The position numbers and the translations under genes were made by a program. 61,433 nt of DNA from a virus (lineage: Duplodnaviria > Caudoviricetes), in the IMG/VR virus record IMGVR_UViG_3300032307_000254, positions 1 to 61,433 of that record; one strand, 5' to 3'. The notes beneath the pieces were generated by a model. It had not been told where the DNA came from and ran no database searches. It saw only the letters and a program-made list of their open reading frames with translations. Positions within the stretch are counted from its first letter, which is position 1; each line of letters starts with the position of its first letter. Below, piece by piece: positions 302 through 26,936 of this stretch.

Positions 302-317
302 ACGAGGAGCAAACCAC

Positions 318-497
318 ATGGATACACCGATGACCACGAGGGGTAGGACTATGCCGCCACCGCTCGACCCGAATGTCCGCGCTACTGTTAGCGTTCTGGA
401 GGCCCGCGAGGGCGTGTTCACCTACATTGGCGGCAAGCTCCACTGCTACGACGCTAATGGTAAGGCCGTGCCGGTGCTAGAGAAGGGAGCAAACTGA
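318..497 (+). CDS. small hypothetical protein
   Basis: AGGAGCAAAC RBS at 305-314 before ATG 318; TGATG overlap with next gene. Confidence 0.7.
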   Translation: MDTPMTTRGRTMPPPLDPNVRATVSVLEAREGVFTYIGGKLHCYDANGKAVPVLEKGAN

Positions 498-2000: not shown

Positions 2001-2031
2001 AGAGTGATGCAACCAATCAGGAGCAAACGAC

Positions 2032-4383: not shown

Positions 4384-4396
4384 CCCCGGAGGTTAT

Positions 4397-4410: not shown

Positions 4411-4425
4411 GTAAGGAGCAAACCA

Positions 4426-4596: not shown

Positions 4597-4600
4597 GAGG

Positions 4601-4813
4601 GTGACCCCCTACACCCCGACCGATATGCGCAAGTATAGCTGCATCGTTGTGGGGGACCTGCCTGCATGGGAGGTCTCCTACTACAACTACCGTAACGAAA
4701 GACGCTCTGTCTGTGTCGGCGGTGTGGACGAGCTGGGGGCTTATGTCAGCGCCCTGAAGAGCTTGGACCGACGCAAAGCAAGAGCAGATAAACGAATAGG
4801 AGCAAACCAATGA
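4601..4813 (+). CDS. hypothetical protein
   Basis: Fills the gap between genes; ATGA overlap with next gene. Confidence 0.5.
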   Translation: MTPYTPTDMRKYSCIVVGDLPAWEVSYYNYRNERRSVCVGGVDELGAYVSALKSLDRRKARADKRIGANQ

Positions 4814-5661: not shown

Positions 5662-5673
5662 GGAGCTACCCAC

Positions 5674-6564: not shown

Positions 6565-6772
6565 CATGGAGCGCGCCAAGGCGGTGGACGCTGCCCGCAA
6601 GGCGCTTCACGACAACGGAGTCCACACTGTGTCAGACGCGGCCCTCGCTGCGACCGCGCTGATGCTACACGTCCTCATCGCCTACGTGGAACGTGGTGCG
6701 GCTGAGGAGGACATCGACAACCTATTGGCATGGCTCAAGGCTGAAGCCCTGAGGGAGGGAGGCAACGAATGA
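6548..6772 (+). CDS. hypothetical protein
   Basis: Overlapping, coupled ORF. Confidence 0.65.
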   Translation: MATLSDMERAKAVDAARKALHDNGVHTVSDAALAATALMLHVLIAYVERGAAEEDIDNLLAWLKAEALREGGNE

Positions 6773-7086: not shown

Positions 7087-7110
7087 CATAGTATGGCTGC
7101 GCAGTATCAC
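7083..7110 (+). promoter_or_regulatory. sigma70-type promoter
   Basis: TTGACA 7083-7088, 16 nt, TATCAC 7105-7110. Confidence 0.55.
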
Positions 7111-7132
7111 TGACACCTGAAGGAGCAACTTC

Positions 7133-7438
7133 ATGGCAAAGACCCCAGAAGGGAAAGTCAAAGATCGAGTAGTCGCCGCTCTCAAAGATGCTGGCGCTTA
7201 CTACTTCTTCCCAGCCACGCACGGCTTTGGCCGGAGCGGGGTTCCCGACGTCGTGGCCTGTATCAACGGGCGCTTCCTCGGCATCGAGTGCAAAGCTGGC
7301 ACCAACAAACCAACGGCGCTGCAAGTGCGGGAGCTTGAACGCATCCGCCTTGCTGGCGGCGTGGCCGTCGTCGTCAACGAAACGAACGTGGATATGCTGC
7401 CCGCCATGCTGGTGCGGCTCAAGTGGGGGGAGGAGTAA
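7133..7438 (+). CDS. VRR-NUC domain nuclease (Holliday-junction resolvase-like)
   Basis: PE-x-KV...GVPD...IECKAG...PTALQ PD-(D/E)xK signature. Confidence 0.85.
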   Translation: MAKTPEGKVKDRVVAALKDAGAYYFFPATHGFGRSGVPDVVACINGRFLGIECKAGTNKPTALQVRELERIRLAGGVAVVVNETNVDMLPAMLVRLKWGEE

Positions 7439-7602
7439 TGCCCTGCCCCTCCCTCGTCACCTTCCTGAAGGTCAACTTCGATTGGGAGTTGGGCGACTGG
7501 AAGGACTGGGAGATACCGTTTTGACAAGGTGCTCTGCAACCTGCGGGTGAGCGCAATTACCAGAGCGATACGCGCTCCGTACAAGATCGGATGAAGTAAG
7601 CA

Positions 7603-9420: not shown

Positions 9421-9775
9421 ACCGGACTGGGCGTTCGGGATTTTCACAGCAGAGGCGATTGAAGCCAAGCGGAAATACTACATGAGCCTACGCACCGAGG
9501 AAGAACGCATCGCTGAGCAGAAGTGCCTAGCGCGGGAGGAGGTCATGTTAAACCGACCGAGACCCGTTAGCCCCCATGCGGAGCCCGAACGCAACCAAGC
9601 CATCTGGAAGGAGCGCAAGGAGCAGGGGACAACTTTTCGGGAATTGGGGGAAAAGCACGGGCTATCTCCAGAACGTATACGGCAGATCGTCGTCGGGATG
9701 GATAGGCGCATAGAGCGGCGGGCCTACTTTGCCGAGTTACGCAAGCAGAAGGAAGGGGCAACCCATGACGGATGA
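9410..9775 (+). CDS. sigma70 region-4-like HTH protein
   Basis: GGGAGCAAGC RBS before ATG 9410; TFRELGEKHGLSPERIRQI. Confidence 0.75.
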   Translation: MEDRPDWAFGIFTAEAIEAKRKYYMSLRTEEERIAEQKCLAREEVMLNRPRPVSPHAEPERNQAIWKERKEQGTTFRELGEKHGLSPERIRQIVVGMDRRIERRAYFAELRKQKEGATHDG

Positions 9776-9980
9776 GAATAAACCAGCGTGTCGGACGTGT
9801 GCCTATTCAGCCGAACACTACCGAATCGAGTGCAGGATAAAACCCCCGGCACCCAACTACAAAACCTACGGGCGGATGTTCCCCGTAGTGGAAGCCCACG
9901 ATTGGTGCGCTAGGTATAAGGCCAAAGAGGCGCAGGCAACAGTGAGCAACCCCAACGAAGAGGATTGGACTGATGACTGA
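9765..9980 (+). CDS. small Cys-rich protein
   Basis: CRTC...C...WC pattern; GGAAGGGGCAAC before ATG. Confidence 0.65.
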   Translation: MTDENKPACRTCAYSAEHYRIECRIKPPAPNYKTYGRMFPVVEAHDWCARYKAKEAQATVSNPNEEDWTDD

Positions 9981-10440
9981 AATCCACCCAGCGGTCGAGC
10001 TGTTGCTCGCCCGTATGAAGAGCCACCCCGAGGAGTTCCCCAGAGGTGGGGGCCGGTGGGCTGGCCTCATCCAAAACATGCAGGAGCTACTGTCGGAGGA
10101 GGAAGTAAGCCTCCTCAAGTCCCACATGCGCACCATCCGCTTGGACGAGTTCCACGCGGACATCATGGACGAGCTGCTCAACGGCCCTGAACGCCGTGCA
10201 GAGGCGGAACGTCAGAGAGCCGAAGGATTGGCGCAGCAGCAAGCGCGCAATGCTGCCGCTGCGGCATTGTCGCAGAAGCAACAAGGCGCGCTTAGGCAAG
10301 CACCATGGGAGCAATACCAAAGCGCTCTCAGCAGCAGCCTTTACGCCGACAGCATTTCCACCCCACCCACCATCAGGATCGGCAGTGAAACGCTGGATGA
10401 GGGGATCATCAAAAACATCAAGAAGGCATTGAAACTATGA
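9973..10440 (+). CDS. hypothetical protein
   Basis: GAGGA RBS; coupled ORF. Confidence 0.75.
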   Translation: MTEIHPAVELLLARMKSHPEEFPRGGGRWAGLIQNMQELLSEEEVSLLKSHMRTIRLDEFHADIMDELLNGPERRAEAERQRAEGLAQQQARNAAAAALSQKQQGALRQAPWEQYQSALSSSLYADSISTPPTIRIGSETLDEGIIKNIKKALKL

Positions 10441-11108
10441 GCGATTACCAATTCACCCAAGACTGGTTCCACTGGGCACCGGAGGTGTGGCAGCACCTCA
10501 CCCCCATGCTGCCGGAGCGGAAGTCGTTCCTTGAGATCGGCTCGTTCGAGGGTCGCAGCGCCGTCTGGATTATCGAGAACATGATGAACCCCGGCGACTG
10601 GATTGACTGCGTTGATACGTGGGAAGGCGGCGAGGAGCATGGCGGCGAGGATATGTACGCCGTGGAAGCCCGGTTTGACCACAACATCATCAAGGCGCTC
10701 GACTGCCAGTCCGCGCAGCACCGTAGCCGTGAGGGTAGCTGGGGCCATACTCGGTTCGCTGGCCCCGGCTCGGACTGGGAAAACAACCGCGTCTACAAGT
10801 ACAAGAGTACGTCTACCGAGTTTCTGGGGCGCAAGCTGGCGGACTGGGTTGACGGTAAGAACCTCTACGACTTCATCTACATCGACGGCAGTCATATCGC
10901 CAAGGACGTGCTGACGGATGCTTGCATGGCATGGCCGCTGCTCAAACCGAACGGCATCATGGCGTTCGACGACTACCTGTGGGGGGACGCACGGGACATT
11001 CTGCACCGTCCCAAGCTGGCGGTGGACGCCTTCTCCAGCATCTTTGCCGAGGAGCTAGAGGTAATCCACACCGGCTACCAGTTCATCGTACGAAAGAGGG
11101 GAGAGTAA
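10437..11108 (+). CDS. class I SAM-dependent methyltransferase (Methyltransf_24-like)
   Basis: LEIGSFEGRS, CVDTW, FIYIDGSH and FDDY motifs. Confidence 0.85.
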   Translation: MSDYQFTQDWFHWAPEVWQHLTPMLPERKSFLEIGSFEGRSAVWIIENMMNPGDWIDCVDTWEGGEEHGGEDMYAVEARFDHNIIKALDCQSAQHRSREGSWGHTRFAGPGSDWENNRVYKYKSTSTEFLGRKLADWVDGKNLYDFIYIDGSHIAKDVLTDACMAWPLLKPNGIMAFDDYLWGDARDILHRPKLAVDAFSSIFAEELEVIHTGYQFIVRKRGE

Positions 11109-11109
11109 C

Positions 11110-11298
11110 ATGTACGCAGAAGGTATCGTGTCCGTGCTGGCCATCATCGCTCCGCTAGGGGTGCTTTGGTTCATGCTCTGGGCACTCGGTAAGATTGGCG
11201 ACCTGAAGAAGACCAACCAGAAGCTCAACGACAAGCTGACGGAGCTGACTGACCGCGACGAGCGCGGTCGTTTTAGGGGTGGGAAGGATAGGAAATGA
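11110..11298 (+). CDS. small membrane-anchored coiled-coil protein
   Basis: N-terminal hydrophobic helix followed by a heptad-like region. Confidence 0.65.
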   Translation: MYAEGIVSVLAIIAPLGVLWFMLWALGKIGDLKKTNQKLNDKLTELTDRDERGRFRGGKDRK

Positions 11299-11327
11299 CC
11301 CACGTGATCGAAGGAAGGAGCAACCCA

Positions 11328-11984
11328 ATGGAAACCAAGAAGCGTAGAAAGCGAAGCCAGACCGCGCAGCGTATCTTCACGCTGCTGAAGAACAACCCGG
11401 ACCTCACTACCCACGAAATCATGAAGGCCCTCCCCGAGCTGCCAGCGACATCGGTCCAGACGGCAGTATCGAGGATGTATCTCAACGGGGAATTGGGGAG
11501 CCGGGGTAAGAAGCCGGTCCCCACAATCGGGGGGTATACGATTTCGTATAGGGCCTACCACGTTAAGTACAACATGCGCCCCAGCGGGAACGTCAAGAAG
11601 AAGGCCAAGCCGCAGCCCACTGCCCCCAACAGTGTGCAGAAGCTGCTTTATAACTGGGTGGAAAAGCCAACTACGCCGCCGCCCCCGCCCCCGCCCCCGC
11701 CTGTGGAAGCACCCAAGGTAGTGGCACCTCATCCCATGGCGAACGTAGCGCCAATCAAACCGGAGCTGGAAGGCCCGGTGACCCCCACTGCCGAACGTGA
11801 GGTTCTGGTGCTGCGCCACCTGTCCGACATCTACAAGGCGCTGAACCTGCTGGCCGAGCAGCAAGAGTCGCTGATCGAAGTGCTCAAGGGTACGCTGGCC
11901 GACCTGTCCGAGACGAAGGAAGCGCTTGATCGGGAGCGGCAGCGCCGCAACTGGTGGGACAAGATTAAGGGGCTGTTCTCATGA
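11328..11984 (+). CDS. winged-HTH-like protein with polyproline linker and coiled coil
   Basis: GGAAGGAGCAAC RBS before ATG 11328; LTTHEI...SVQTAVSRM; run of 9 Pro. Confidence 0.65.
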   Translation: METKKRRKRSQTAQRIFTLLKNNPDLTTHEIMKALPELPATSVQTAVSRMYLNGELGSRGKKPVPTIGGYTISYRAYHVKYNMRPSGNVKKKAKPQPTAPNSVQKLLYNWVEKPTTPPPPPPPPPVEAPKVVAPHPMANVAPIKPELEGPVTPTAEREVLVLRHLSDIYKALNLLAEQQESLIEVLKGTLADLSETKEALDRERQRRNWWDKIKGLFS

Positions 11985-12763
11985 CCGATGAGATCAAGGT
12001 GAAGCCCGTGGAGAAGCGCCCGTCGCTGATGATCGCTACTCCCATGTACGGTGGTATGTGCACCGGGCACTATGTGCAGGGGCTGCTGATGACCATGCAG
12101 AAGATGCGTGAGATCGGCGTCAACGTGGCGTGGTGCCAGATCATGAACGAGAGCCTCATCACCCGTGCTCGCAACGAGCTGGTGCGGGTGTTCCTTGAGA
12201 GCGACCACGACTACCTGATGTTCATCGACGCCGACATCGGCTTCGACGGGGAGGCCATCGCGCAACTGATGCTGGCCGACAAGGACATCGCCTGTGGCAT
12301 CTACCCCAAGAAGGAGGTGAACTGGGATAGCGTGGAGCGCGCTGCACAAGGTGGCAAGCTGACCCAGCTGAAGGACCATGCCGGAGCCTTTGTGTTCAAC
12401 ATGGTTGGCAACGGCAACGCCGAGACCGACGAGACCGGCTGCATCGAGGTGCGGCATGGCGGCACGGGTTTCATGCTCATCAAGCGGGGGGTGTTCGAGC
12501 ACCTCAAGCCCCATGTGCCGACCTATCGGGTGTCGTCGTTCCGGGACCCCTCGACGGGTGAGTACCAGAAGCCGCTGACCCACGAGTTCTTCGCTACCAG
12601 TATAGACGCAACCGGCGCGCTGCTGTCGGAGGACTATCATTTCTGTGAGCTGTGGCGCGACCACGGGGGCAAAATCCATGTGCACCCGTTCATCAAGCTG
12701 GAGCACGTCGGCACCTACGTGTTCGGGGGAGACATCCTCAAGAGCGGTGGCAATCTGAAGTAA
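11981..12763 (+). CDS. glycosyltransferase-like protein (GT-A fold)
   Basis: IATPMYGG, SLITRARN, FIDADI (DxD), GTGFMLI, SEDYHFC, LEHVG. Confidence 0.8.
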   Translation: MTDEIKVKPVEKRPSLMIATPMYGGMCTGHYVQGLLMTMQKMREIGVNVAWCQIMNESLITRARNELVRVFLESDHDYLMFIDADIGFDGEAIAQLMLADKDIACGIYPKKEVNWDSVERAAQGGKLTQLKDHAGAFVFNMVGNGNAETDETGCIEVRHGGTGFMLIKRGVFEHLKPHVPTYRVSSFRDPSTGEYQKPLTHEFFATSIDATGALLSEDYHFCELWRDHGGKIHVHPFIKLEHVGTYVFGGDILKSGGNLK

Positions 12764-12774
12764 GGAGCAAACCA

Positions 12775-13242
12775 ATGAAGAAGACCAAAATTATCCCGAG
12801 CGACTACAAGACCAAGGCCGAGGCCGTTCTGGCCATGCTCAACAAGGGCATGACCTCTGCGGAAATCCGGCAGGTTATGGACGTCAGCGATAGCCACATC
12901 CGCCACCTGCGGGCGCAGATGGCACACAAAACCGAGGAAGCGGAGCAGCCGAAGGTGAAGCCGGAGACGGACGACATCACCGAGGTCCTCGAAGAGCGCG
13001 GAAGTCGGTACGGCCCGTTCGTTAGCCATGCGGCGATCACCCAGCGGTTGAAGACTGTGGCTCACCAGTTTGCAAACGAACGGGGTACGAAGCTCGTCGT
13101 CGATCAGGCCGAGGCACTGGACATGATCTTCCACAAGATCGGGCGCATCCTGAACGGTGACCCCAACTACGCCGATAGCTGGGTGGACATCGCCGGGTAT
13201 GCCAAGCTCGTCGCTGATCGTCTCGAAGGGAAGGTGCGGTGA
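12775..13242 (+). CDS. HTH plus DUF6378-like domain protein
   Basis: AAGGAGCAAACCAATG start; LEERGSRYG...KIGRILNGDP...DSWVDIAGYA. Confidence 0.75.
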   Translation: MKKTKIIPSDYKTKAEAVLAMLNKGMTSAEIRQVMDVSDSHIRHLRAQMAHKTEEAEQPKVKPETDDITEVLEERGSRYGPFVSHAAITQRLKTVAHQFANERGTKLVVDQAEALDMIFHKIGRILNGDPNYADSWVDIAGYAKLVADRLEGKVR

Positions 13243-13448
13243 AACTACCCGAGCGGCTACGGGAGGCCCTAGATGCGACGGGCCTCCCATGGGTTATTGA
13301 GTTAGGGGGAAAGCACTATAAGGTGCGGCTGGCGGGGAAGCTCGTCAGCGTATACCCCAAGGGGAAAGGGCACGAGGCCGACAAGCGCGTCCTCCTCAAC
13401 ACAATAACCCAAGTGCGCCGAGCGGCGCGGGAGCTACAATCCACATGA
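13239..13448 (+). CDS. small protein, possibly HicA-like fold
   Basis: Helix, then GGKHYKV beta-hairpin; coupled ORF. Confidence 0.45.
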   Translation: MKLPERLREALDATGLPWVIELGGKHYKVRLAGKLVSVYPKGKGHEADKRVLLNTITQVRRAARELQST

Positions 13449-14116
13449 CCGCGTGGTCCTACAGCAGCATCAAGACCTTCGACCAGTGTCCGAAGAAGTA
13501 CTTCCACCTCAAGGTTGTGAAGGACGTCAAGGACGATCCGGGCGAGGCCGCTGTCTATGGGACCGAGGTCCACGAGGCCGCTGAGCTATTCGTCAAGGAC
13601 GGCACCCCCATCCCTGAGAAGTTCGCCTTCATGCGCCCCATCGTGGAGCCACTGGCAGCCAAGCAGGGTGAGAAGCTGACCGAGATGAAGCTGGGTCTAC
13701 GCAAGACCGAGGATGGCTACGAGGCTTGCGGCTTCTTCGACAAGGACGTCTGGTACCGGGGCATCGTGGACCTTCTGATTCTCGACGGCGACCGGGCTTG
13801 GATGATCGACTACAAGACCGGCAAGAACGCCAAGTATGCGGACATGAAGCAGCTCGACCTTATGGCTGGTGCGATATTCGTAAAGTACCCGGAGCTGAAG
13901 GTCATCAAGTCGGGGCTGGCCTACGTGGTCAGCCACGAGTTCCCGAAGAAAACCCACGAGCGGAAGAAGCTGAAGCAGTACCTGTCGGTGTTCGACGATC
14001 AGCTAGACCGTTTGGACGCAGCCATGGAAAATGGTATATGGAACGCCCAGACCAGCCCGCTGTGCGGGTGGTGCCCGGTCACCTCGTGCGAACACTGGAA
14101 ACCCCGGAGGAAGTGA
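13445..14116 (+). CDS. PD-(D/E)xK Cas4/RecB-like exonuclease
   Basis: SYSSI...CP, GIVD...IDYKTG, Q-x-x-L, C-terminal CGWC-x5-C. Confidence 0.85.
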   Translation: MTAWSYSSIKTFDQCPKKYFHLKVVKDVKDDPGEAAVYGTEVHEAAELFVKDGTPIPEKFAFMRPIVEPLAAKQGEKLTEMKLGLRKTEDGYEACGFFDKDVWYRGIVDLLILDGDRAWMIDYKTGKNAKYADMKQLDLMAGAIFVKYPELKVIKSGLAYVVSHEFPKKTHERKKLKQYLSVFDDQLDRLDAAMENGIWNAQTSPLCGWCPVTSCEHWKPRRK

Positions 14117-14397
14117 TGGCCCGCAATTACCGCGCCGAGTACGACAAGTACCATGCCAGCCCAGAGCAGAAGAGGAACCGGGCGCAGCGCAACGCTGCCC
14201 GGGCCAAGCTGATGAAGGCGGGCAAGGTCAAGAAGGGCGACGGCAAGGACGTGGCCCACGTGCGGGCCTTTGACAAAGGCGGCAGCAACGGGGATGGACT
14301 GCGGGTCGAAAGCCGCTCCGCCAACCGGTCGTTCAAGCGGGACAACAAGGGCAACCTCGTGAGTGAGACGAGCAAGCGTGAGCGGAAAAAGAAGTAA
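14116..14397 (+). CDS. HNH-endonuclease-like small protein
   Basis: GGAGG RBS, TGATG overlap; DGKDVAH...GGSN...ANRS. Confidence 0.75.
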   Translation: MARNYRAEYDKYHASPEQKRNRAQRNAARAKLMKAGKVKKGDGKDVAHVRAFDKGGSNGDGLRVESRSANRSFKRDNKGNLVSETSKRERKKK

Positions 14398-14418
14398 CTA
14401 CGCGGGTAGGAGCAAACG

Positions 14419-15963
14419 GTGAAGGTTATCAACAACAGAGCCCTCCTTCTGGAGGTGCCCGACCCGTCCGTGGTGACGGACAACATCCACAACAGCGCCG
14501 AGGTGAAGGAAGGCGTACTGGTTAAGTGGGGGCAGACCGAGACGGAAATCCTTGCCAAGCTGGGGTTCGAGGCTCCCTCCCCCATGCTCAAGTCCTACGA
14601 GTGGACGGGTAAGCTGACGCCGTTCGAGCACCAGAAGACCACAGCCTCTTTCCTCTCCATCCGCAGACGCGCCTTCTGCTTCAACGAGCAGGGCACCGGC
14701 AAGACCGCCAGCGTCATCTGGGCAGCCGACTACCTCATGAAGCGCGGGCTGGTGAAGCGTGTGCTGGTGCTGTGCCCCCTGTCGATCATGAAGTCCGCGT
14801 GGCAGCAGGACCTGTTCAAGTTCGCCATGCACCGGTCGTGCAGCGTGGCGCATGGGTCAGCCAAGCAGCGGGAGAAGATCATCAACGCCGGGGCCGAGTT
14901 CGTCGTCATCAACTTCGACGGGCTGGCCATCGTGAAGGACCAGATCATCGCGGGTGGGTTCGACCTGATCGTGGTGGACGAGGCCAACGCGTACAAAAAC
15001 GCGCAGACCAATCGGTGGCGGGTGCTCAACCAGATCACGAAGGCAACCGACCCACGCCTGTGGATGCTCACTGGTACGCCCGCTGCGCAGTCGCCGCTGG
15101 ATGCCTACGGTCTCGCCAAGCTGGCCGACGCGCCGAGCTGCCCTAAGTACTACGGCCAGTACCGCGATCAGGTGATGATGAAGGTCACCCAGTTCAAATG
15201 GGTTCCCCGTCCCGGCTCGCAGGACATCGTGCACCGCATCCTGCAACCGGCCATCCGGTTCGAGAAGAAGGACTGCCTCGACCTGCCAGAGGTTACCCAT
15301 ATCGAGCGAGAGGCACCGCTCACCTCCCAGCAGGCGAAGTATTACGCCCAGCTGAAGAACCAGATGCTCATCGAAGCTGATGGGGAAGAGGTCAGCGCGG
15401 TCAACGCAGCAGCCAAGATCAACAAGCTGCTCCAGATCAGCGGGGGCGCGGTCTACACGGATGAAGGCTCGGTGCTGGAGTTCGACATCTCCAACCGCCT
15501 CAACGTCGTGCTGGAGGTCATCGAGGAAGCCAGCAACAAGGTGCTGGTGTTCATCCCCTTCACCCACACCATCGAGCTGCTCCGTGCCAAGCTGGAGAAG
15601 GAAGGCATCTCGTGCGACGTCATCAACGGGAAGGTGCCGGTCAACCGGCGCTCGGAGATCGTCACGCGGTTCCAGACGGAGCGTGACCCGCACGTGCTGC
15701 TCATCCAGCCACAGGCTGCATCGCATGGGCTTACTCTTACGGCGGCAGACACAATCATCTGGTACGCCCCGGTCACCAGCGTGGAGACCTACCTACAGGC
15801 CAACGCCCGCATCAACCGCCCGGGCCAGAAGAACGCTATGACCATCGTGCACATCAAGGGTAGCGAAGTGGAAAGCCGCCTCTACTCCATGCTGCAAAGC
15901 AACATCGACAACCACGAGAGAATCATTGACCTCTACCGCAGGATGGTGGTGGAAGCAGCGTAA
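14419..15963 (+). CDS. SNF2-family (SF2) helicase
   Basis: EQGTGKT, DEAN, LTGTP, HGLTL and QANARINRPGQ motifs. Confidence 0.9.
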   Translation: MKVINNRALLLEVPDPSVVTDNIHNSAEVKEGVLVKWGQTETEILAKLGFEAPSPMLKSYEWTGKLTPFEHQKTTASFLSIRRRAFCFNEQGTGKTASVIWAADYLMKRGLVKRVLVLCPLSIMKSAWQQDLFKFAMHRSCSVAHGSAKQREKIINAGAEFVVINFDGLAIVKDQIIAGGFDLIVVDEANAYKNAQTNRWRVLNQITKATDPRLWMLTGTPAAQSPLDAYGLAKLADAPSCPKYYGQYRDQVMMKVTQFKWVPRPGSQDIVHRILQPAIRFEKKDCLDLPEVTHIEREAPLTSQQAKYYAQLKNQMLIEADGEEVSAVNAAAKINKLLQISGGAVYTDEGSVLEFDISNRLNVVLEVIEEASNKVLVFIPFTHTIELLRAKLEKEGISCDVINGKVPVNRRSEIVTRFQTERDPHVLLIQPQAASHGLTLTAADTIIWYAPVTSVETYLQANARINRPGQKNAMTIVHIKGSEVESRLYSMLQSNIDNHERIIDLYRRMVVEAA

Positions 15964-15986
15964 GGCGAAGAGCGCCCTACCCCCGC

Positions 15987-16015
15987 TTGACAATGTATAA
16001 TGTAATAAATATAGG
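15987..16015 (+). promoter_or_regulatory. sigma70-type promoter
   Basis: TTGACA 15987-15992, 17-nt AT-rich spacer, TATAGG 16010-16015. Confidence 0.7.
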
Positions 16016-16051
16016 GGTATCTGCGGCGCGAGCCGCATGAAGGAGCAAACC

Positions 16052-16456
16052 ATGTCAGATCAACAGTCGATTGCCGACCTCGTGGCTGTGTATCGCAAGC
16101 TGCGGGGTGCCCTCACGGAGGCAGAGGAAGCCTACGAGGCCAAGGTCAAAACCCTCAAGGACCAGCTGGAGCTGGTGTCCGCTGAACTCCTCAACTTCTG
16201 CAACGAGCAGAACCTCGACAGCGTGAAAACGCCAGCAGGAACCATCTCTCGGCGCGTTCAGACCCGGTACTGGACGACCGACTGGGACCAGATGAACAAC
16301 TTCATCATCGAGCACAACGCTCTGCACCTGCTGGAGAAGCGCATCCACAACACCAACATGAAGCAGTTTTTGGAGGATAACCCGGACGCCCTCCCCATCG
16401 GCCTTCAGGTCGATAACAAGTACGTCATCCAAGTCCGCAAACCGAGCGAGAAGTAA
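16052..16456 (+). CDS. conserved phage replication-region protein (coiled coil plus KTPAGT motif)
   Basis: GAAGGAGCAAACCATG start. Confidence 0.75.
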   Translation: MSDQQSIADLVAVYRKLRGALTEAEEAYEAKVKTLKDQLELVSAELLNFCNEQNLDSVKTPAGTISRRVQTRYWTTDWDQMNNFIIEHNALHLLEKRIHNTNMKQFLEDNPDALPIGLQVDNKYVIQVRKPSEK

Positions 16457-16461
16457 GAACC

Positions 16462-17385
16462 ATGAGCAACATCACCATCTTTGAAGAACCCTCCAACCTG
16501 CCCACCGTGCGCCGCGAGTCGCGCCGCATGGACCGTATGTCCACCGGCAGCGGTAGCTCTATGCGCCGCATCCAGCTTAGCAACGGACGTACATTCAAGC
16601 GCATCGTGGGCGGCGAGCAGATCGGTAAGGCTGCCCCCAACCAGCTGGACGTCATCATTGTTGACTGGCTGGCAGAGCCGAGCCGCAAGTTCTACGCTGG
16701 TGCCTACGACCCCAGTGCCAAGGCTACGCTGCCCGACTGCTGGTCGAATGACGGCGTCGCACCGGAAGCGGGTGCCAAGAACAAGCAGCACAGCTCCTGC
16801 GCTGCGTGCCCCAAGAACGTCAAGGGTTCGGCTCCGGGCAACAAGAAGGCTTGCCGCTATGAGCGCCGCATCGCAGTCCTCGTCGTTGGCGACCCCAGCG
16901 GTGACGTCTACCAGATCGCCATCCCGGCTGCGTCGTTGTTCAGCGACAATGATGGGAACGTCTATGGCTTCGAGGGCTACAAGAAGTTCCTCCTCGCCAG
17001 CAACGAAGCGCTGGACACGGTCGTGACCCGCATCATCTACGACGAAGACGCCGACACCATCAAGGTGGGGTTCAAGCCTATCCGCCACCTGACCGAGGTA
17101 GAAGCCGGACTTGTGGACGCCGCGCAGGATGACCCCGAGACCGAGCGGTATACCAAGCTGACCGTGGGGGCCGTGGATGGTGCCAAGGCTCCTGCCGCCC
17201 AGAAGCCGCTGGCCATCGAGGCTGCTCCTGCTGCCGCACCGGCCAACCCGTTCGGTGATGACGATGAGGAAGAGGTGGAAGCCACCCCGGTCAAGCGGGC
17301 CGCTAAGCCCAAGGCGACTGCCGAGGTGAAGCCGGAACTGGCTTCGGTCCTCAGCGAATGGCTTGATAACGAGGATGAGGACTGA
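16462..17385 (+). CDS. putative single-stranded DNA-binding/annealing protein
   Basis: Position in replication module; Cys cluster (PDCWS, CAACP, C); low-complexity linker and acidic tail WLDNEDED. Confidence 0.6.
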   Translation: MSNITIFEEPSNLPTVRRESRRMDRMSTGSGSSMRRIQLSNGRTFKRIVGGEQIGKAAPNQLDVIIVDWLAEPSRKFYAGAYDPSAKATLPDCWSNDGVAPEAGAKNKQHSSCAACPKNVKGSAPGNKKACRYERRIAVLVVGDPSGDVYQIAIPAASLFSDNDGNVYGFEGYKKFLLASNEALDTVVTRIIYDEDADTIKVGFKPIRHLTEVEAGLVDAAQDDPETERYTKLTVGAVDGAKAPAAQKPLAIEAAPAAAPANPFGDDDEEEVEATPVKRAAKPKATAEVKPELASVLSEWLDNEDED

Positions 17386-17387
17386 GT

Positions 17388-17615
17388 ATGCGCGGCTACA
17401 GTATCCGGGTAGCCGAGGCTGTTAAGGGGGCCGACGGTAACCTTCTTGGGGTGCAACTCGGGCGAGCGTGTCTCGCCCGGGACATCCCGGTCTCCAAAAT
17501 CTCGGAGACCTTTGGGGTCACACGTCAAACGGTGTATAGCTGGTTCCTTGGGGTGAGGGAGCCAAGGGGTAAAACCTGCGATGCAATCCGGGCCTACCTG
17601 ACTACCCTCGACTGA
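17388..17615 (+). CDS. XRE/Cro-like HTH regulator
   Basis: VSKISETFGVTRQTVYSWF. Confidence 0.75.
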   Translation: MRGYSIRVAEAVKGADGNLLGVQLGRACLARDIPVSKISETFGVTRQTVYSWFLGVREPRGKTCDAIRAYLTTLD

Positions 17616-17670
17616 GGCTTTCGCAAAAAATAGATAATGAGCGGGGTTTCCCGCATTGGTGAGTGATGTG

Positions 17671-20514
17671 ATGCAACAACCTGACCTCTTGACCCTAGTG
17701 CAGCCAGCGGAAGGCTGGTTCGCCATCACGGGTATCAAGGGTACGGGAAAGAGCGCCGACGTTCGTCAGGAGCTTGTGGCTACGCGAGAAGAGGCAGATG
17801 CCCTCATCGAGCAGTACGTCCGAGCGGGGCGCAACGTGTTCTTCGGGGTGGCGAAGTACAGGACGGGGGATAACCGCAAGAAGGAGAACGTCCTTGGTCT
17901 CAAGGCGTTCTGGCTCGATGTGGACTGCGGCCCGAGCAAGGCCGAACCCAATCCGAAGACTGGCCGACCCGATGGCTACGTGGACCAGAAGGCGGGGCTG
18001 CGCGCCCTGATGACCTTCTGCAAAACCGTCGGTCTCCCTCCCCCTACCCTAGTAAGCTCTGGCGGTGGCATCCATGCCTACTGGCCGTTGGAGCAGGAAG
18101 TCTCCCGGCGCGACTGGGAGGCCGTGGCTGAGCGTTTCAAAGACGTGTGCCGCGCCCAGAACTTCTACGTCGATAACGCTGTGTTCGAAGTGGCGCGCAT
18201 CCTGCGCGTCCCCGGCACGTTCAACTTCAAGGAAGAAGAGCCACGCCCGGTCGAGTTTCTCCATGTTGGGGACGTGACGACCATTGAGGAGATGCGCTCA
18301 GTCCTTGGGGTCAAGAAGCAGTCGTCGATCTTTGACGACAACTTCGAGATGACCCCGCGCCAGAAGGCGATGATGAGCGGGGTGGGCTACAACTTCAAGC
18401 GCATCATGACCCGCACCGCCAAGGGGGACGGCTGTAACCAGCTCCTACACGCGTACACCAACCGGGCCAGCATCAGCTACTACGAGTGGTTCTATGCGCT
18501 CTCGGTGGCTGCCATGTGCGAGGACGCCGACACAGCGGTGCACATGATGTCTAATGGCCATCCGGACTACGACCCGGAGACCGTGGACAAGAAGGTAGCC
18601 ACCATCCGGAAGGCGACTAGCTGCGCCAAGTTCCGCAGCGTGGACCCCAGCCTGTGCGATGGCTGCCCCCACTTCGACAAGATCGTGGGACCCAAGGAGC
18701 TGGGTAAGGTGGTCAAGGAGTCCAGCGAGGACTTCCTCAAGGTCGAGGTCGAGCCGGGTGTGGTCGAGCACATCGACATCCCCAAGTTCCCCTTCCCCTT
18801 CTACCGGGGCGAGGATGGCGGCGTGTGGCGCAAGGGCGCGAAGATGGAGAACGGCGAAGAGGCGGAGCCCATCATGGTCTACGCCAACGACTTCTACATC
18901 GTGAAGCGGATGTACGACCCGAATGACGGGGACTCAGCGTTTATGCGGGTGCATCTACCACAGGATGGCATCCGTGAATTCTCGGTTCCCATGTCGAAGG
19001 TCACCCAGAAGGATGAGCTTCGGAAGCTGCTCTCCGCCAACGGGGTCTACAGCTACGGCAAGAAGTTCGAGATTTTGATGGATTACGTCTTCAAGTCAGC
19101 AGAGCAACTACAGGACAAGCAGAAGGCAGAGATCATGAGACAGCAGTTTGGCTGGGTGGACGGCAACAGCCGGTTCGTCCTTGGCGATCAGGAAATCACC
19201 GTCGAAGGTAACATCTACTCCCCTCCCTCTAAGGCCACCAGCAAGCTGGCCAAATTCATCGGCCCCAAGGGGTCCCTCGACAACTGGAAGGAAGTGTGGA
19301 GCCTGTTCGGGCAAGAGGGCATGGAAGCACAGGCGTTCGCTGCGCTCAGCGCGTTCGGCTCGCCGCTGCTCAAGTTCTTCAACCAGACCGGGGCCATCAT
19401 CAACCTGTTCAACCCGCGCTCCGGCACGGGCAAGACCACCATCCTCAATATGGTCAACAGCGTCTACGGGCACCCGAAGGAGCTGCGCCTCAAAGAGATG
19501 GACACCATGAACGGGCGGCTCCAGTGGGTCGGCGTCTTGAACAATCTGCCCCCCACCATGGACGAGCTCACCAACGCTTCCCCGCAGGAATATTCAGACC
19601 TCCTCTACATCTTGGCCAACGGCAAGGGGAAGGAGCGCATGATGGCGGGCTCCAACGAGCTGCGCGAGAACAACACCACGTGGCAGAGCATCACGGTCTC
19701 GACCTCGAACGCGTCGTTCGCTGAGAAGCTGTCGGTGCTGAAGAACAATCCTGAGGGCGAGCTGATGCGCCTGATCGAGTACCCCATCGGGCTCGTGGAC
19801 GCGATCAATACGGCCCATGCCAAACACCTGTTCGATCAGGTCCTGTTCTCCAACTATGGGCACGCGGGGCCGATCTACATCCGCCACCTGCTCAACCATC
19901 TGGAGTACGCTGAGGCGCAGTGCCTTGCCATGCAAGCCAAGATCGACCGGGAGCTGGACCTTCTACCCAAGGAGCGGTTCTGGTCGGCCACGGTTGCTTC
20001 CAACCTTCAGGGTGGCCTCTTCGCCAAGCAGTGCGAGCTGATTGATTGGGATATGGCGCGCATCTACAACTGGTCGTGCGGGCTGATCGAACGGCTGCGG
20101 GTCGAGACGGAAGCGCCCCTTGATGGTCCGGAGCAGGTCATCGGTGACTACCTCTATCGGCATATGCAGAACATCCTCGTCGTCAATGACGAGGTGGACC
20201 GGCGCACCAACCTGCCTTCGGCTCCTGTGCGCGAACCAAAGGGTGAGTTGCTCATCCGCATCGAGCCGGACACGAAGCTGATGTTCGTGATCGCCAAGCA
20301 GTTCAAGGAGTACTGCGTCAAGTTCCAGATCAACTACGGCCAGACCCTCGACCGGCTGGAGAAGCAGGGGCGTCTGGTGAGGCGCGGGGGCAAGCGTCTC
20401 TCCAAGGGTATGTCGGTCTCGGGGGACAACATCCACTGCCTCTGGTTCAAGCTGGACGAGGATTTCGTGGACGTCGAGAACTACACCAAGGAAGCGCCCG
20501 CCGATGATGCTTGA
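17671..20514 (+). CDS. primase-helicase fusion (N-terminal primase, DUF927-like region, P-loop NTPase); start uncertain (17656-17671)
   Basis: WLDVD and SGGGIHAYW primase motifs, RILRVPGT; Cys cluster; SGTGKTT Walker A, MDE Walker B. Confidence 0.85.
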   Translation: MQQPDLLTLVQPAEGWFAITGIKGTGKSADVRQELVATREEADALIEQYVRAGRNVFFGVAKYRTGDNRKKENVLGLKAFWLDVDCGPSKAEPNPKTGRPDGYVDQKAGLRALMTFCKTVGLPPPTLVSSGGGIHAYWPLEQEVSRRDWEAVAERFKDVCRAQNFYVDNAVFEVARILRVPGTFNFKEEEPRPVEFLHVGDVTTIEEMRSVLGVKKQSSIFDDNFEMTPRQKAMMSGVGYNFKRIMTRTAKGDGCNQLLHAYTNRASISYYEWFYALSVAAMCEDADTAVHMMSNGHPDYDPETVDKKVATIRKATSCAKFRSVDPSLCDGCPHFDKIVGPKELGKVVKESSEDFLKVEVEPGVVEHIDIPKFPFPFYRGEDGGVWRKGAKMENGEEAEPIMVYANDFYIVKRMYDPNDGDSAFMRVHLPQDGIREFSVPMSKVTQKDELRKLLSANGVYSYGKKFEILMDYVFKSAEQLQDKQKAEIMRQQFGWVDGNSRFVLGDQEITVEGNIYSPPSKATSKLAKFIGPKGSLDNWKEVWSLFGQEGMEAQAFAALSAFGSPLLKFFNQTGAIINLFNPRSGTGKTTILNMVNSVYGHPKELRLKEMDTMNGRLQWVGVLNNLPPTMDELTNASPQEYSDLLYILANGKGKERMMAGSNELRENNTTWQSITVSTSNASFAEKLSVLKNNPEGELMRLIEYPIGLVDAINTAHAKHLFDQVLFSNYGHAGPIYIRHLLNHLEYAEAQCLAMQAKIDRELDLLPKERFWSATVASNLQGGLFAKQCELIDWDMARIYNWSCGLIERLRVETEAPLDGPEQVIGDYLYRHMQNILVVNDEVDRRTNLPSAPVREPKGELLIRIEPDTKLMFVIAKQFKEYCVKFQINYGQTLDRLEKQGRLVRRGGKRLSKGMSVSGDNIHCLWFKLDEDFVDVENYTKEAPADDA

Positions 20515-20698
20515 GGGCGTTATCTATGACGTCAACTGGCGGGCCTTCAAAAAGGGCACATCGCTCTTCTTCCCCTGCCTCGATCAGGACCGGGCCAAAA
20601 CACAACTTATGGTGGTTGTGGGGCGGCTGCGCCTCAAGGTCTTGGTCAAATATGTCATAGAAGATGGCATAAGGGGTTTACGGGTCTGGCGAATCTGA
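20504..20698 (+). CDS. small conserved protein, last gene of the early arm
   Basis: Overlaps primase stop; SLFFPC...GLRVWR. Confidence 0.7.
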   Translation: MMLEGVIYDVNWRAFKKGTSLFFPCLDQDRAKTQLMVVVGRLRLKVLVKYVIEDGIRGLRVWRI

Positions 20699-20705
20699 CT
20701 ATACC
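20677..20705 (+). promoter_or_regulatory. putative promoter of the small RNA
   Basis: TTTACG 20677-20682, 17 nt, TATACC 20700-20705. Confidence 0.5.
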
Positions 20706-20710
20706 CGCCC

Positions 20711-20786
20711 CCGGAAGTTTGCTCCTTCCACGATGTGCATCACATCCCTCCCAACCCCCGGCTGCCTCACTCAGCCGGGGGTTTTT
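20711..20786 (+). ncRNA. candidate antisense small RNA complementary to the shared early-gene RBS motif
   Basis: SL1 GGAAG-UUUGCUC-CUUCC (20713-20729), SL2 GAUGUG-CAU-CACAUC (20732-20746), CCUCCC linker, terminator hairpin; 20717-20727 is the reverse complement of AAGGAGCAAAC. Confidence 0.65.
20753..20786 (+). terminator. intrinsic terminator between the convergent arms
   Basis: AACCCCCGGCTG-cctcact-CAGCCGGGGGTT followed by a T-run. Confidence 0.85.
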
Positions 20787-20792
20787 CTATTC

Positions 20793-26936
<6,144 letters not shown>

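What the first reader, a model, noticed from the sequence alone, without database searches (positions are those of the whole stretch)
20677..20790. Candidate phage small RNA antisense to a ribosome-binding motif shared by ~13 early genes
Seen: the short gap where the two arms converge folds into SL1 GGAAG[UUUGCUC]CUUCC, SL2 GAUGUG[CAU]CACAUC, a CCUCCC linker and a terminator. It is preceded by TTTACG-17-TATACC. Bases 20717-20728 (GUUUGCUCCUUC) are the reverse complement of GAAGGAGCAAAC, the extended RBS of many early genes. Pairing is 12 bp with the site at 16039, 11 bp at 4413, 12762 and 11313, and 10 bp at 305, 2019, 4798 and 14408. The seed lies in a U-rich loop. Established: loop-initiated pairing and SD occlusion are standard mechanisms of bacterial antisense and trans-acting sRNAs. 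Inference: one ~75-nt RNA, from its own promoter or released from the 3' end of the early transcript, could silence the early/replication regulon in one step. That would be an RNA-based early-to-late or dormancy switch with a target tag written into each RBS. I do not recognise this as a described system.
Basis: partly seen in the sequence, partly recalled or inferred. Interest (0 to 1): 0.92.

Follow-up and report, generated by a model that had tools for sequence, protein, structure and literature searches.

The report
Phage small RNA pairing early-gene ribosome sites
Between the early and late genes of this uncultured phage lies a short structured RNA whose exposed loop is complementary to the ribosome-binding sites of about ten of the phage's own early genes, and in related phages the loop and those sites have changed together, which suggests a new RNA regulator of phage gene expression.

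Summary
The 94-nt gap 20699-20792 folds, on the + strand, into SL1 (GGAAG[UUUGCUC]CUUCC), SL2 and an intrinsic terminator. Bases 20717-20728 are the exact complement of the tag GAAGGAGCAAAC. Ten of 35 predicted early starts have 10-12 contiguous complementary bases to SL1. None of 45 late starts has 9 or more.

The new evidence is comparative. In 150 related viral and metagenome loci (111 distinct gaps), the RNA encoded after the conserved 64-aa ORF holds 8 or more contiguous bases complementary to the start region of the orthologous 134-aa gene in 71 of 103 cases. A composition-matched decoy gives 3 of 103. The seed and the target site have changed together many times, for example GUUUGCUCC/GGAGCAAAC, AAUCGCUCC/GGAGCGAUU, GUUGCUCC/GGAGCAAC and CCUCUCUC/GAGAGAGG. 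The SL1 stem shows compensatory changes.

My best reading is a new family of phage base-pairing RNAs that occlude the ribosome-binding sites of a subset of the phage's own early genes. Not shown: a discrete transcript, its own promoter, repression, or a role as an early-to-late switch. No RNA data or cultured host exists. The scan's first readers noted the same thing, unchecked, in two other genomes. Rfam has no match. My literature searches found no description.

The parts
20504..20698 (+). Conserved 64-aa ORF, the last gene of the early arm. Its 3' end carries the -35-like box.
   Evidence: ORF list. tblastn orthologs were found in 150 related loci. No Pfam or PHROG family.
20677..20682 (+). 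-35-like hexamer TTTACG, built from codons GGT-TTA-CGG of the 64-aa ORF.
   Evidence: TTA is used in 0 of 407 Leu codons of 13 large early genes, yet it is kept here in 11 of 12 aligned genomes. That indicates a nucleotide-level constraint. Promoter function is inferred, not shown.
20700..20705 (+). -10-like box TATACC, 17 nt after TTTACG, directly after the stop codon and 7 nt before SL1.
   Evidence: An AT-rich TAnnnn/TAnnnT box sits at this place in relatives. The consensus scan does not call it. Its association with a seed is modest (49 of 61 with a box have a seed, against 23 of 42 without; p = 0.008).
20713..20729 (+). SL1: stem GGAAG/CUUCC with the 7-nt loop UUUGCUC. This is the seed hairpin.
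   Evidence: Fold. In 35 distinct sequences, 98.3% of cells are paired, 3 of 5 pairs show compensatory changes, and the loop is invariant apart from one 1-nt deletion.
20717..20728 (+). Seed GUUUGCUCCUUC, the complement of the early RBS tag GAAGGAGCAAAC.
   Evidence: It covaries with target start regions in relatives.
20732..20746 (+). SL2: GAUGUG[CAU]CACAUC. It varies in sequence and length among relatives.
   Evidence: Fold. Alignment shows the region is poorly conserved.
20747..20752 (+). Single-stranded C-rich linker CCUCCC.
   Evidence: UCCCUCCC (20745-20752) is complementary over 8 nt to the start region of gene 6769. The significance is unclear.
20753..20788 (+). Intrinsic terminator: a 12-bp G+C-rich stem, a 7-nt loop and a U run.
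   Evidence: In 91 related terminators, G-U pairs number 80 of 950 in the + fold against 29 of 900 in the - fold. Only 4 of 91 have an A run upstream, so it terminates + strand RNA.
305..314 (+). Target RBS of the 59-aa gene (start 318), 10 nt complementary.
486..495 (+). Target RBS of the 90-aa gene (start 497; weak DUF6948 match), 10 nt.
2019..2028 (+). Target RBS of the 401-aa DUF2201 metallopeptidase/VWA-like gene (start 2032), 10 nt.
4413..4423 (+). Target RBS of the 56-aa gene (start 4426), 11 nt.
4798..4807 (+). Target RBS of the 283-aa gene (start 4810), 10 nt.
7119..7128 (+). Target RBS of the 101-aa ORF (start 7133), 10 nt (GAAGGAGCAA).
11313..11323 (+). Target RBS of the 218-aa gene (start 11328), 11 nt (GGAAGGAGCAA).
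12762..12772 (+). Target RBS of the 155-aa DUF6378 gene (start 12775), 11 nt.
14408..14417 (+). Target RBS of the SNF2-family helicase gene (start 14419), 10 nt. A conserved core target across the lineage.
   Evidence: The ortholog start region is complementary to its own gap RNA over 8 nt or more in 45 of 83 distinct genomes, against 3 of 83 for the decoy.
16039..16050 (+). Target RBS of the 134-aa gene (start 16052; weak Mu Gam-like match below cut-off), 12 nt. The most conserved target.
   Evidence: The ortholog start region is complementary over 8 nt or more in 71 of 103 distinct genomes, against 3 of 103 for the decoy.

Best explanation
The gap encodes the founding member seen here of a new family of phage regulatory RNAs. 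It is made on the + strand, at least as the 3' end of the early transcripts, and possibly also from its own promoter placed in and just after the 64-aa ORF. Its 5' hairpin presents a 7-nt loop. With the 3' arm, this gives 10-12 nt that base-pair with the Shine-Dalgarno sequence plus spacer of about ten early genes of the same phage. Pairing over the Shine-Dalgarno sequence should block 30S binding and lower translation of the tagged genes, and perhaps trigger cleavage. Because the terminator hairpin protects the 3' end, the RNA should accumulate as early transcription proceeds. That would give delayed negative feedback on the tagged early genes.

Shown here: the structure, the strand, the complementarity, its restriction to early start regions, and seed/target co-evolution.

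Inferred: repression, accumulation, action in trans, and timing.
For: (1) Structure. Three hairpins, z = -5.97. The SL1 stem has compensatory changes in 3 of 5 pairs, with 98.3% of cells paired over 35 sequences. 0 of 500 shuffles reach the covariation score, and slid controls give 41-76% paired.

(2) Strand. The terminator is called on the + strand only. G-U pairs number 80 of 950 in the + fold against 29 of 900 in the - fold, and an A run lies upstream in 4 of 91 related terminators.

(3) Specificity in the window. All 8 of 8 early-strand copies of the loop complement are in RBS position. Ten of 35 early starts have 10 nt or more of complement, while 0 of 45 late starts have 9 or more.

(4) Conservation. 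Of 45 primase-anchored viral loci that reach the gap, 43 carry GTTTGCTCC in a hairpin. One (L045) has a 1-nt shorter loop and one (L081) has no gap.

(5) Co-variation between molecules.
- L180: loop AAUCGCUCC against the 134-aa gene's AGGAGCGATTC, 11 nt, with three positions changed on both sides relative to the window.
- L193: UUCGCUCC against GGAGCGAA.
- L166, L197, L202, L204, L205: GUUGCUCC against GGAGCAAC.
- L097/L098: loop ACUCCUCUCUC against the SNF2 site CGAGAGAGGA (10 nt) and the 134-aa gene's GAGAGAGG (8 nt).
- L232/L250: UCCUCUUGGU against ACCAAGAGGA.
- L234, L235, L243, L249, L261 and L212/L214 have further distinct pairs.
- In a matrix of own against foreign pairings, own values are 12, 11, 11 and 8 (10 for SNF2), and foreign values are 8 or less.
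- Overall, 71 of 103 distinct genomes have 8 nt or more and 54 of 103 have 10 nt or more, against 3 of 103 and 0 of 103 for a same-composition decoy. There are 35 distinct matched strings.

(6) The bases 5' of GGAG in the target follow the 3' arm of SL1: CUUCC with GAAGGAG, CUGUC with ACAGGAG (L030), CUUUCC with AAAGGAG (L037/L044), CUCUC with GAGGAG.

(7) Clades with no hairpin have only 4-7 nt of complement and no tag in the early-gene start regions: L081/L093/L095/L096/L110, L172 and L178.

(8) In predicted folds of variant clades the seed lies in a loop or a single-stranded linker, upstream of a terminator.

(9) Possible own promoter: the rare TTA codon is kept inside the -35-like box (0 of 407 Leu codons elsewhere), and TAnnnT boxes follow the stop codon in distant clades.
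Against: There are no RNA data. No RNA run was listed, so neither a discrete transcript nor its ends are known.

The consensus promoter scan does not call TTTACG-17-TATACC. The scan also finds few promoters anywhere in the early arm, so this says little. The association of a -10-like box with a seed is modest and rests on a crude pattern.

A naive duplex-energy scan of the whole SL1 against all sense windows does not rank the RBS sites first. They score -20 to -22 kcal/mol, while G+C-rich sites elsewhere reach -26 kcal/mol. The case therefore rests on contiguous loop-seeded pairing and covariation, not on energy.

There are exceptions to co-variation. L045 lost one U of the loop while its sites stay GGAGCAAAC. 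L213 and L209 keep the standard loop with GGAGCAAC or GGAGCAGC sites. L195 keeps the box and terminator but has no seed.

In 32 of 103 distinct genomes the complement is under 8 nt.

Start codons in relatives were assigned by my own simple rule, not by a gene caller.

If the RNA is made only as the 3' end of the early mRNA, its amount relative to about ten sites per mRNA is unfavourable unless a stable 3' fragment accumulates.
Confidence: 0.78

Rival explanations
1. Same pairing, but purely in cis. The element is only the 3' untranslated end of the long early mRNA and folds back on ribosome-binding sites of that same molecule. There is no separate small RNA and no own promoter.
For: No convincing + strand terminator is predicted inside the early arm 1-20000, so early transcripts probably run to 20788. 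The promoter-like box is not called by the consensus scan. From recall, not checked here: 3'UTR anti-Shine-Dalgarno pairing within one mRNA is described for icaR of Staphylococcus aureus.
Against: The targets lie 4.6 to 20 kb upstream, and there are about ten of them for one seed. Nucleotide-level constraint on the -35-like codons and the TAnnnT boxes directly after the stop codon in distant clades are better explained by a promoter. A stable 3' fragment would act in trans anyway.
Confidence: 0.2
2. The shared motif is a double-stranded DNA site for a phage DNA-binding protein. It is read in either orientation, so sites before early genes and the inverted site in the gap change together when the protein's specificity changes.
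For: Covariation of sites alone cannot separate RNA pairing from a common DNA-binding specificity.
Against: All tagged sites sit on one strand, 1-4 nt before a start codon, and include the Shine-Dalgarno sequence. The gap copy is always the only inverted one. It is always set in a hairpin whose stem keeps pairing through compensatory changes, with a + strand terminator after it. The target's 5' flank follows the stem's 3' arm. In distant clades the seed is in a single-stranded linker of a structured RNA.
Confidence: 0.05
3. The loop targets host 16S rRNA, because GGAGCAAAC is also bases 775-783 of E. coli 16S rRNA. The early RBS tag would then merely resemble that segment.
For: There is an exact 9-nt identity in rrsH of E. 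coli K-12. It is seen in 6 of 200 shuffles of that 2.1-kb stretch.
Against: Variant clades have seeds that match their own start regions but no longer match that motif: AAUCGCUCC, CCUCUCUC, UCCUCUUGGU and others. Pairing with the phage sites is longer, at 10-12 Watson-Crick pairs. From recall: that 16S segment is base-paired inside the ribosome.
Confidence: 0.02
4. The gap holds an ordinary terminator region with protective hairpins. The complementarity to the RBS tag is chance, or a by-product of C/U-rich against purine-rich composition.
For: Any C/U-rich stretch pairs with 4-6 nt of a Shine-Dalgarno sequence. Clades without the element show 4-7 nt of complement.
Against: A decoy of identical composition reaches 8 nt in 3 of 103 genomes and 10 nt in 0 of 103, against 71 and 54 for the true orientation. 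The loop is invariant while flanks vary. The 9-mer occurs once in 61 kb. Many independent seed and target changes match each other.
Confidence: 0.02
5. The functional strand is the minus strand. Late transcripts that run through the gap carry an RBS-like hairpin that serves as a start site for a tiny ORF or as a decoy.
For: On the - strand the gap reads as a copy of the tag in a hairpin loop. No U run follows the hairpin on that strand, so late transcripts may read through.
Against: No start codon follows the motif on the - strand, in the window or in relatives (sequences). G-U pairs and U tails mark the + strand. The -35/-10-like boxes face the + direction. A read-through late RNA could still matter, as an antisense sponge of the small RNA.
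Confidence: 0.03

Closest known systems
c4 antisense RNA of phages P1 and P7
   Same: A phage-encoded small structured RNA whose loops pair with complementary sites around a ribosome-binding site in a transcript of the same phage and block translation (review PMC12197685, passages read). From recall: it is processed from the same transcript that holds its targets.
   Different: c4 controls one operon (ant/icd) and underlies prophage immunity in temperate phages. Here about ten dispersed early genes carry the site, and no integrase or repressor was seen among the 29 proteins scanned. The RNA sits at the 3' end of the early arm with its own terminator. No sequence or Rfam relation exists.
T4 RegB endoribonuclease and RegA translational repressor
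   Same: They give phage-encoded post-transcriptional shut-down of many early genes through a signal in their translation initiation regions. RegB cuts GGAG in early Shine-Dalgarno sequences, and RegA competes with ribosomes on about 30 mRNAs (PMC3014915, passages read).
   Different: Those are proteins that recognise short, loosely defined sites. Here the recogniser is an RNA and the address is a 9-12-nt complement that co-evolves with it.
Multi-target bacterial base-pairing small RNAs with a conserved seed and a Rho-independent terminator, including 3'UTR-derived ones
   Same: A short accessible seed in a 5' hairpin or linker, a terminator hairpin with a U tail, occlusion of Shine-Dalgarno regions of several mRNAs, and a position at the 3' end of an operon (general knowledge, recalled; the structures here are).
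   Different: It is encoded by a probably virulent phage and aimed at the phage's own early genes. The targets share an engineered-looking tag that includes the spacer, rather than imperfect matches. Chaperone dependence is unknown.
PAK_P3 ncRNA1/ncRNA2 and other 3'UTR-derived RNAs of virulent Pseudomonas phages
   Same: Abundant small RNAs from virulent phages that lack their own start site and appear to be processed from 3'UTRs, accumulating late in infection (PMC10914365, passages; PMC4933390, passages).
   Different: Their targets are unknown. The only phage matches reported were single 11-nt matches inside two genes, and sRNA2 shares 11 nt with tRNA T-loops. No shared RBS tag is described.

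Membership tests
Any described RNA family (Rfam 15) | Match to a covariance model at or above the gathering score | tested here: not met
   The whole window at gathering threshold gives only a tRNA at 59818-59890. In 20550-20900 at E up to 10, the best hit scores 18.6 bits against cut-offs of 39-96, and all E values exceed 1.
Trans-acting base-pairing small RNA | Seed complementary to target mRNAs, with conservation or covariation of seed and target | tested here: met
Trans-acting base-pairing small RNA | Seed in an accessible loop or single-stranded stretch of a stable fold | tested here: met
   Predicted folds only. SL1 is supported by covariation.
Trans-acting base-pairing small RNA | Rho-independent terminator with a U tail at the 3' end | tested here: met
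Trans-acting base-pairing small RNA | Discrete stable transcript, from its own promoter or by processing | tested here: inconclusive
   No RNA run was listed. Promoter-like boxes are conserved and a rare codon is kept, but the consensus scan does not call them and the association is modest.
Trans-acting base-pairing small RNA | Seed-dependent change of target translation or stability | not testable with these tools
   Needs reporter assays or toeprinting.
P1/P7 c4-type immunity antisense RNA | Pairs with sites around a ribosome-binding site of a phage transcript | tested here: met
   The feature is as stated in PMC12197685.
P1/P7 c4-type immunity antisense RNA | Belongs to the immunity system of a temperate phage (controls an antirepressor) | tested here: not met
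   No integrase, repressor or antirepressor family was found among the 29 proteins scanned. The targets are a helicase, a Gam-like protein and unknowns. Not all genes were scanned.
Cis-acting 3'UTR anti-Shine-Dalgarno element | Seed and target lie on one and the same mRNA molecule | tested here: inconclusive
   No strong + strand terminator is predicted between the targets and the gap. Transcript maps are lacking.
Intrinsic (Rho-independent) terminator | G+C-rich hairpin followed by a U run on the transcribed strand | tested here: met
   This covers only 20753-20788, not SL1.

The most novel reading that the evidence does not exclude
A large lineage of uncultured phages with about 60-kb genomes runs part of its early programme through one small RNA and an 'address label' written into the ribosome-binding sites of chosen early genes. 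Label and seed co-evolve, with at least ten different label/seed pairs seen. Each sub-lineage would then have its own private code. The RNA would act as a built-in timer that turns translation of the labelled genes down as early transcription proceeds. It could also let a resident phage silence a closely related superinfecting phage that uses the same label.
Probability: 0.4. Interest if true: 0.88.

Novelty: new variant of a known kind. Interest (0 to 1): 0.8.

Why it matters
Regulatory RNAs of virulent phages are mostly known as bands or read pile-ups without targets. Here the target set can be read from the sequence and is backed by repeated co-evolution of seed and site. That gives a directly testable case of RNA-based control of a phage's own early genes. 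It would be the RNA counterpart of T4 RegA and RegB.

It also gives a natural series of orthogonal seed/RBS pairs, which could serve as parts for synthetic translational control. It provides a marker (64-aa ORF, hairpin, terminator) for finding the RNA in metagenomes. And it explains why the Shine-Dalgarno spacer, normally free to vary, is frozen in these genomes.

Tried and rejected
(1) A DNA search of 19500-22000 against 50,697 deposited phage records found no match. A protein search with the primase-helicase found only distant cultured relatives. The best is Pseudomonas phage Rollin at 29% identity. Its converging genes overlap and leave no gap, so no cultured phage carries the element among those searched.

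(2) Sequencing runs: no RNA holder was listed for 18000-23000.

(3) Rfam: nothing, as stated above.

(4) A naive duplex-energy scan of SL1 against all sense windows did not single out the RBS sites. I replaced it with loop-complement and contiguous-match counts.

(5) The 17-mer GGAAGTTTGCTCCTTCC was searched in 596 billion bases of prokaryote genomes. It gave 48 hits in unrelated taxa. My own arithmetic expects about 70 by chance, so this gives no host clue. Two hits in one Gammaproteobacteria MAG share flanks unlike the phage locus.

(6) I recalled that PAK_P3 sRNA2 was an anti-RBS RNA. The paper's passages do not say so, and I dropped the idea.

(7) The 16S rRNA target idea was raised and rejected because of the variant seeds.

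(8) A small minus-strand ORF was rejected because no start codon follows the motif.

No fold was run.

(10) Literature searches listed no paper describing a phage RNA complementary to a shared early-gene RBS. I read passages of PMC10914365, PMC12197685, PMC4933390 and PMC3014915 only. The other papers were seen as listings. Supplements are closed and might hold candidate lists that I could not see. Papers outside the library were not searched.
Full report
CONTEXT. The window is a whole viral record of 61,433 bp, estimated 98% complete, with 60.8% G+C. A + strand arm (1-20698) carries replication-type genes:
- family A DNA polymerase, 7603-9420
- SNF2-family helicase, 14419-15963
- DUF927 primase-helicase, ending at 20514
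- a 64-aa ORF, 20504-20698

A - strand arm begins at 20793 with a 2047-aa protein and carries tail, head and terminase genes. The finding lies in the 94-nt gap where the two arms converge.

Folding 20699-20792 as + strand RNA gives SL1 (GGAAG[UUUGCUC]CUUCC), SL2 (GAUGUG[CAU]CACAUC), a single-stranded CCUCCC linker and a 12-bp terminator stem with a U run. Energy is -35.0 kcal/mol, z = -5.97, and 0 of 200 shuffles fold as well. The terminator is also called by the pattern scan, on the + strand only.

The 12-mer at 20717-20728 is the exact reverse complement of GAAGGAGCAAAC. That motif with up to 2 mismatches occurs 18 times against 4.4 expected. GTTTGCTCC occurs once on the + strand of the whole record. 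The exact complement of the 7-nt loop occurs 8 times on the early sense strand, all 8 followed within a few bases by a start codon. It occurs once on the 39-kb late sense strand and never on the early antisense strand.

With my own simple start-codon assignment, 10 of 35 early starts have 10-12 contiguous Watson-Crick complementary bases to SL1. The lengths are 12 at 16052; 11 at 4426, 11328 and 12775; and 10 at 318, 497, 2032, 4810, 7133 and 14419. None of 45 late starts has 9 or more.

RELATIVES: THE HAIRPIN AND ITS LOOP ARE CONSERVED. The primase-helicase was used as an anchor that is blind to the gap. It brought in 13 and then 77 viral contigs at 45-86% identity. Of the 45 loci that extend 150 nt or more beyond the 64-aa ORF, 43 carry GTTTGCTCC in a hairpin followed by a terminator. 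One (L045) has a loop one U shorter, and one (L081) has no gap at all.

In an alignment of 35 distinct sequences the loop is invariant apart from that deletion, while flanks vary. The five SL1 pairs are formed in 98.3% of cells. Three of the five pairs show changes on both sides (GGAAG/CUUCC, GACAG/CUGUC, GGAAAG/CUUUCC, GAGG/CCUC). 0 of 500 shuffles reach the covariation score, and slid controls give 41-76% pairing. Later clades add GAGAG/CUCUC and GGUAG/CUACC stems with the same loop.

WHICH STRAND. In 91 related terminators, G-U pairs number 80 of 950 pairs in the + strand fold and 29 of 900 in the - strand fold. The + strand is the more stable in 56 and the - strand in 34. Only 4 of 91 have an A run upstream that would give a U tail on the other strand. 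No start codon follows the motif on the - strand. The structured RNA is therefore the + strand, and on that strand the loop is antisense to the early ribosome-binding sites.

THE DECISIVE RESULT: SEED AND TARGET CHANGE TOGETHER. Searching with the primases of the outlying loci L081 and L098 (viral contigs) and of L180 (metagenome contigs) opened more distant clades. For every locus I took two things. The first was the 75 nt after the stop codon of the 64-aa ORF. The second was the 22 nt before the start codons of the orthologs of two window genes: the SNF2 helicase (14419) and the 134-aa gene after it (16052; weak Mu Gam-like match below cut-off).

Where the loop differs, the ribosome-binding site of the orthologous target differs in the complementary way:
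- L180 has loop AAUCGCUCC and site AGGAGCGATTC, 11 nt. Relative to the window, three loop positions and the three positions opposite them have all changed.
- L192 and L196 share L180's loop, and the site read in L192 keeps that pair.
- L193 has UUCGCUCC with GGAGCGAA.
- L166/L167, L197, L202, L204 and L205 have GUUGCUCC with GGAGCAAC, up to 12 nt.
- L097/L098 have a hairpin loop ACUCCUCUCUC. Its complement GAGAGAGG marks the SNF2 site (10 nt) and the 134-aa gene's site (8 nt), and occurs nowhere else in reverse orientation in the locus.
- Still more distant clades have other pairs: UCCUCUUGGU/ACCAAGAGGA (L232, L250), GGCUUCUCCU/AGGAGAAGCC (L249), UUCUCCUUC/GAAGGAGAA (L243), CUCUCUCC (L235), CUCCUAGU (L234), CUCCUUGU (L261) and UUACCUCU (L212, L214).

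In predicted folds these seeds lie in a loop or in a single-stranded linker, upstream of a terminator. Own-against-foreign pairings give 12, 11, 11 and 8 (10 for SNF2) on the diagonal and 8 or less elsewhere.

Over all 150 loci there are 111 distinct gaps, of which 103 have an identified 134-aa start region. The longest contiguous complement is 8 nt or more in 71 of 103 and 10 nt or more in 54. A decoy of identical composition (the complement, not reversed) reaches 8 nt in 3 and 10 nt in none. For the SNF2 site the figures are 45 of 83 against 3 of 83. There are 35 distinct matched strings.

The bases just 5' of GGAG in the target also follow the 3' arm of the SL1 stem: GAAGGAG with CUUCC, ACAGGAG with CUGUC in L030, AAAGGAG with CUUUCC in L037/L044, and GAGGAG with CUCUC. 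This suggests that pairing spreads from the loop into that arm.

Clades whose converging genes abut or whose gap has no such RNA show only 4-7 nt of complement and no tag in their early-gene start regions. These are the L081 group at 41-45% G+C, the L172 group, and L178.

RESULTS THAT DO NOT FIT. L045 lost one loop base while its sites remain GGAGCAAAC. L209 and L213 keep the standard loop with altered 134-aa sites. L195 keeps the AT-rich box and the terminator but has no seed. In 32 of 103 genomes the complement is below 8 nt. A naive duplex-energy scan does not rank the sites first. Start codons in relatives come from my own rule (tblastn anchor plus nearest in-frame start), not from a gene caller.

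OWN PROMOTER OR 3' END? At the least, the RNA is the 3' end of early transcripts, because no convincing + strand terminator is predicted in 1-20000.

Three observations favour an own promoter:
- The -35-like TTTACG is built from codons GGT-TTA-CGG of the 64-aa ORF. TTA is used for 0 of 407 leucines, and AGG for 12 of 277 arginines, in 13 large early genes. Yet ATTAGGGGTTTACG is kept at nucleotide level in 11 of 12 aligned genomes.
- An AT-rich box follows the stop codon at a fixed distance, 5-7 nt before the hairpin. In distant clades it reads TAnnnT, 18 nt after TTGCGN.
- Clades without the RNA lack both boxes.

Three observations weigh against it:
- The window's TATACC lacks the final T, and the consensus scan does not call it.
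- That scan finds fewer promoters in the early arm than in shuffles, so it is uninformative for this host.
- My crude test of box against seed is only modest: 49 of 61 with a box have a seed, against 23 of 42 without, p = 0.008.

I leave this open at about even odds.

MECHANISM. Shown: a conserved + strand structured RNA, a seed complementary to the Shine-Dalgarno sequence plus spacer of a defined subset of early genes, and repeated seed/site co-evolution. From established knowledge of base-pairing RNAs, a duplex over the Shine-Dalgarno sequence prevents 30S binding. I therefore infer translational repression of the tagged genes.

Because the terminator hairpin protects the 3' end, the RNA should outlast the mRNA body and accumulate. 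That would give delayed negative feedback. This step, and any role as an early-to-late switch, is inference.

The many-to-one arrangement explains two odd facts. The loop is frozen over primase identities down to about 56%. The spacer of the sites, normally free to vary, is frozen too.

The polymerase and the primase-helicase are not tagged, so this is not a shut-off of all replication genes. Across the lineage the constant targets are the helicase and the 134-aa gene. The number of further tagged genes differs by clade.

Late transcripts, which have no U tail after the hairpin on their strand, may read through and carry the perfect antisense of the RNA. Whether that matters is unknown.

COMPARISON WITH WHAT IS KNOWN. 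No Rfam family matches. The nearest phage precedent is the c4 RNA of P1 and P7. It pairs around a ribosome-binding site of the ant transcript, but serves prophage immunity and has one target operon (PMC12197685, passages). T4 RegB and RegA do a comparable job with proteins (PMC3014915, passages). 3'UTR-derived RNAs of virulent Pseudomonas phages are known but have no assigned targets (PMC10914365 and PMC4933390, passages).

Four full-text searches listed no description of a phage RNA complementary to a shared early RBS. First readers of this scan noted the same arrangement, unchecked, in two other genomes and noted the RBS tag in this one.

I file it as a new variant of a known kind. The mechanism class, a seed-pairing small RNA that occludes a ribosome-binding site, is known. 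The RNA family, its self-directed multi-gene address label in a probably virulent phage, and the series of co-evolved label/seed pairs are new as far as I could search.

VERDICT. My confidence that this is a functional anti-RBS RNA element is 0.78. Interest is 0.8.

Noticed in passing
window 305-16050 (tag) and L092 1046-1054: The tag GGAGCAAAC is identical to bases 775-783 of E. coli 16S rRNA (rrsH). Seen in 6 of 200 shuffles of that stretch, so probably coincidence, since variant seeds no longer match it.
   Followed up: yes
L049 about 10090-10110 and L084 about 10090-10112: These two relatives carry a second copy of the anti-RBS sequence (GTTTGCTCC, or TTTTTGCTCC) in the loop of the terminator hairpin, in addition to SL1.
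   Followed up: partly
L251, gap RNA after its 64-aa ORF: Besides the SL1 loop, a second single-stranded stretch ACTTGCTCA is complementary over 9 nt to that phage's own SNF2 start region (TGAGCAAGT). This would be a second seed for a diverged site.
   Followed up: no
window 20745-20752 and 6755-6768: The C-rich stretch UCCCUCCC between SL2 and the terminator is complementary over 8 nt to the purine-rich start region (GGGAGGGA) of the gene starting at 6769. C-rich CUCC-type stretches recur in linkers and terminator loops of relatives.
   Followed up: no
window 13 large early genes; 20678-20680: The Leu codon TTA is absent from 407 Leu codons of the large early genes. Its only noted use is inside the -35-like box of the 64-aa ORF.
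   Followed up: partly
window 54934-54940 (- strand): This is the single late-strand copy of the loop complement GAGCAAA (context AAGGAGCAAATGGAG). It lies inside the 828-aa ORF 54827-57313 and is followed directly by ATG. It was not examined as a possible internal start.
   Followed up: no
window 61217-61248 (+): A strong intrinsic terminator (14-bp stem, T run) follows the gene 60377-61180. It may close a separate immediate-early unit upstream of the main early arm.
   Followed up: no
L135 557-573 and L153 4092-4108: Two contigs of one Gammaproteobacteria MAG hold the exact 17-mer of SL1 within about 120 nt of shared flank that is unlike the phage locus. It may be a repeated element of that genome or a chance match.
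   Followed up: partly
No Sm or Hfq family appeared at E up to 0.01.
   Followed up: partly
L190 (Pseudomonas phage Rollin) 11987-13287: This is the nearest cultured relative by primase (29% identity) and has the same genome size and two-arm layout. Its converging genes overlap by 4 nt, so it has no gap RNA.
   Followed up: yes
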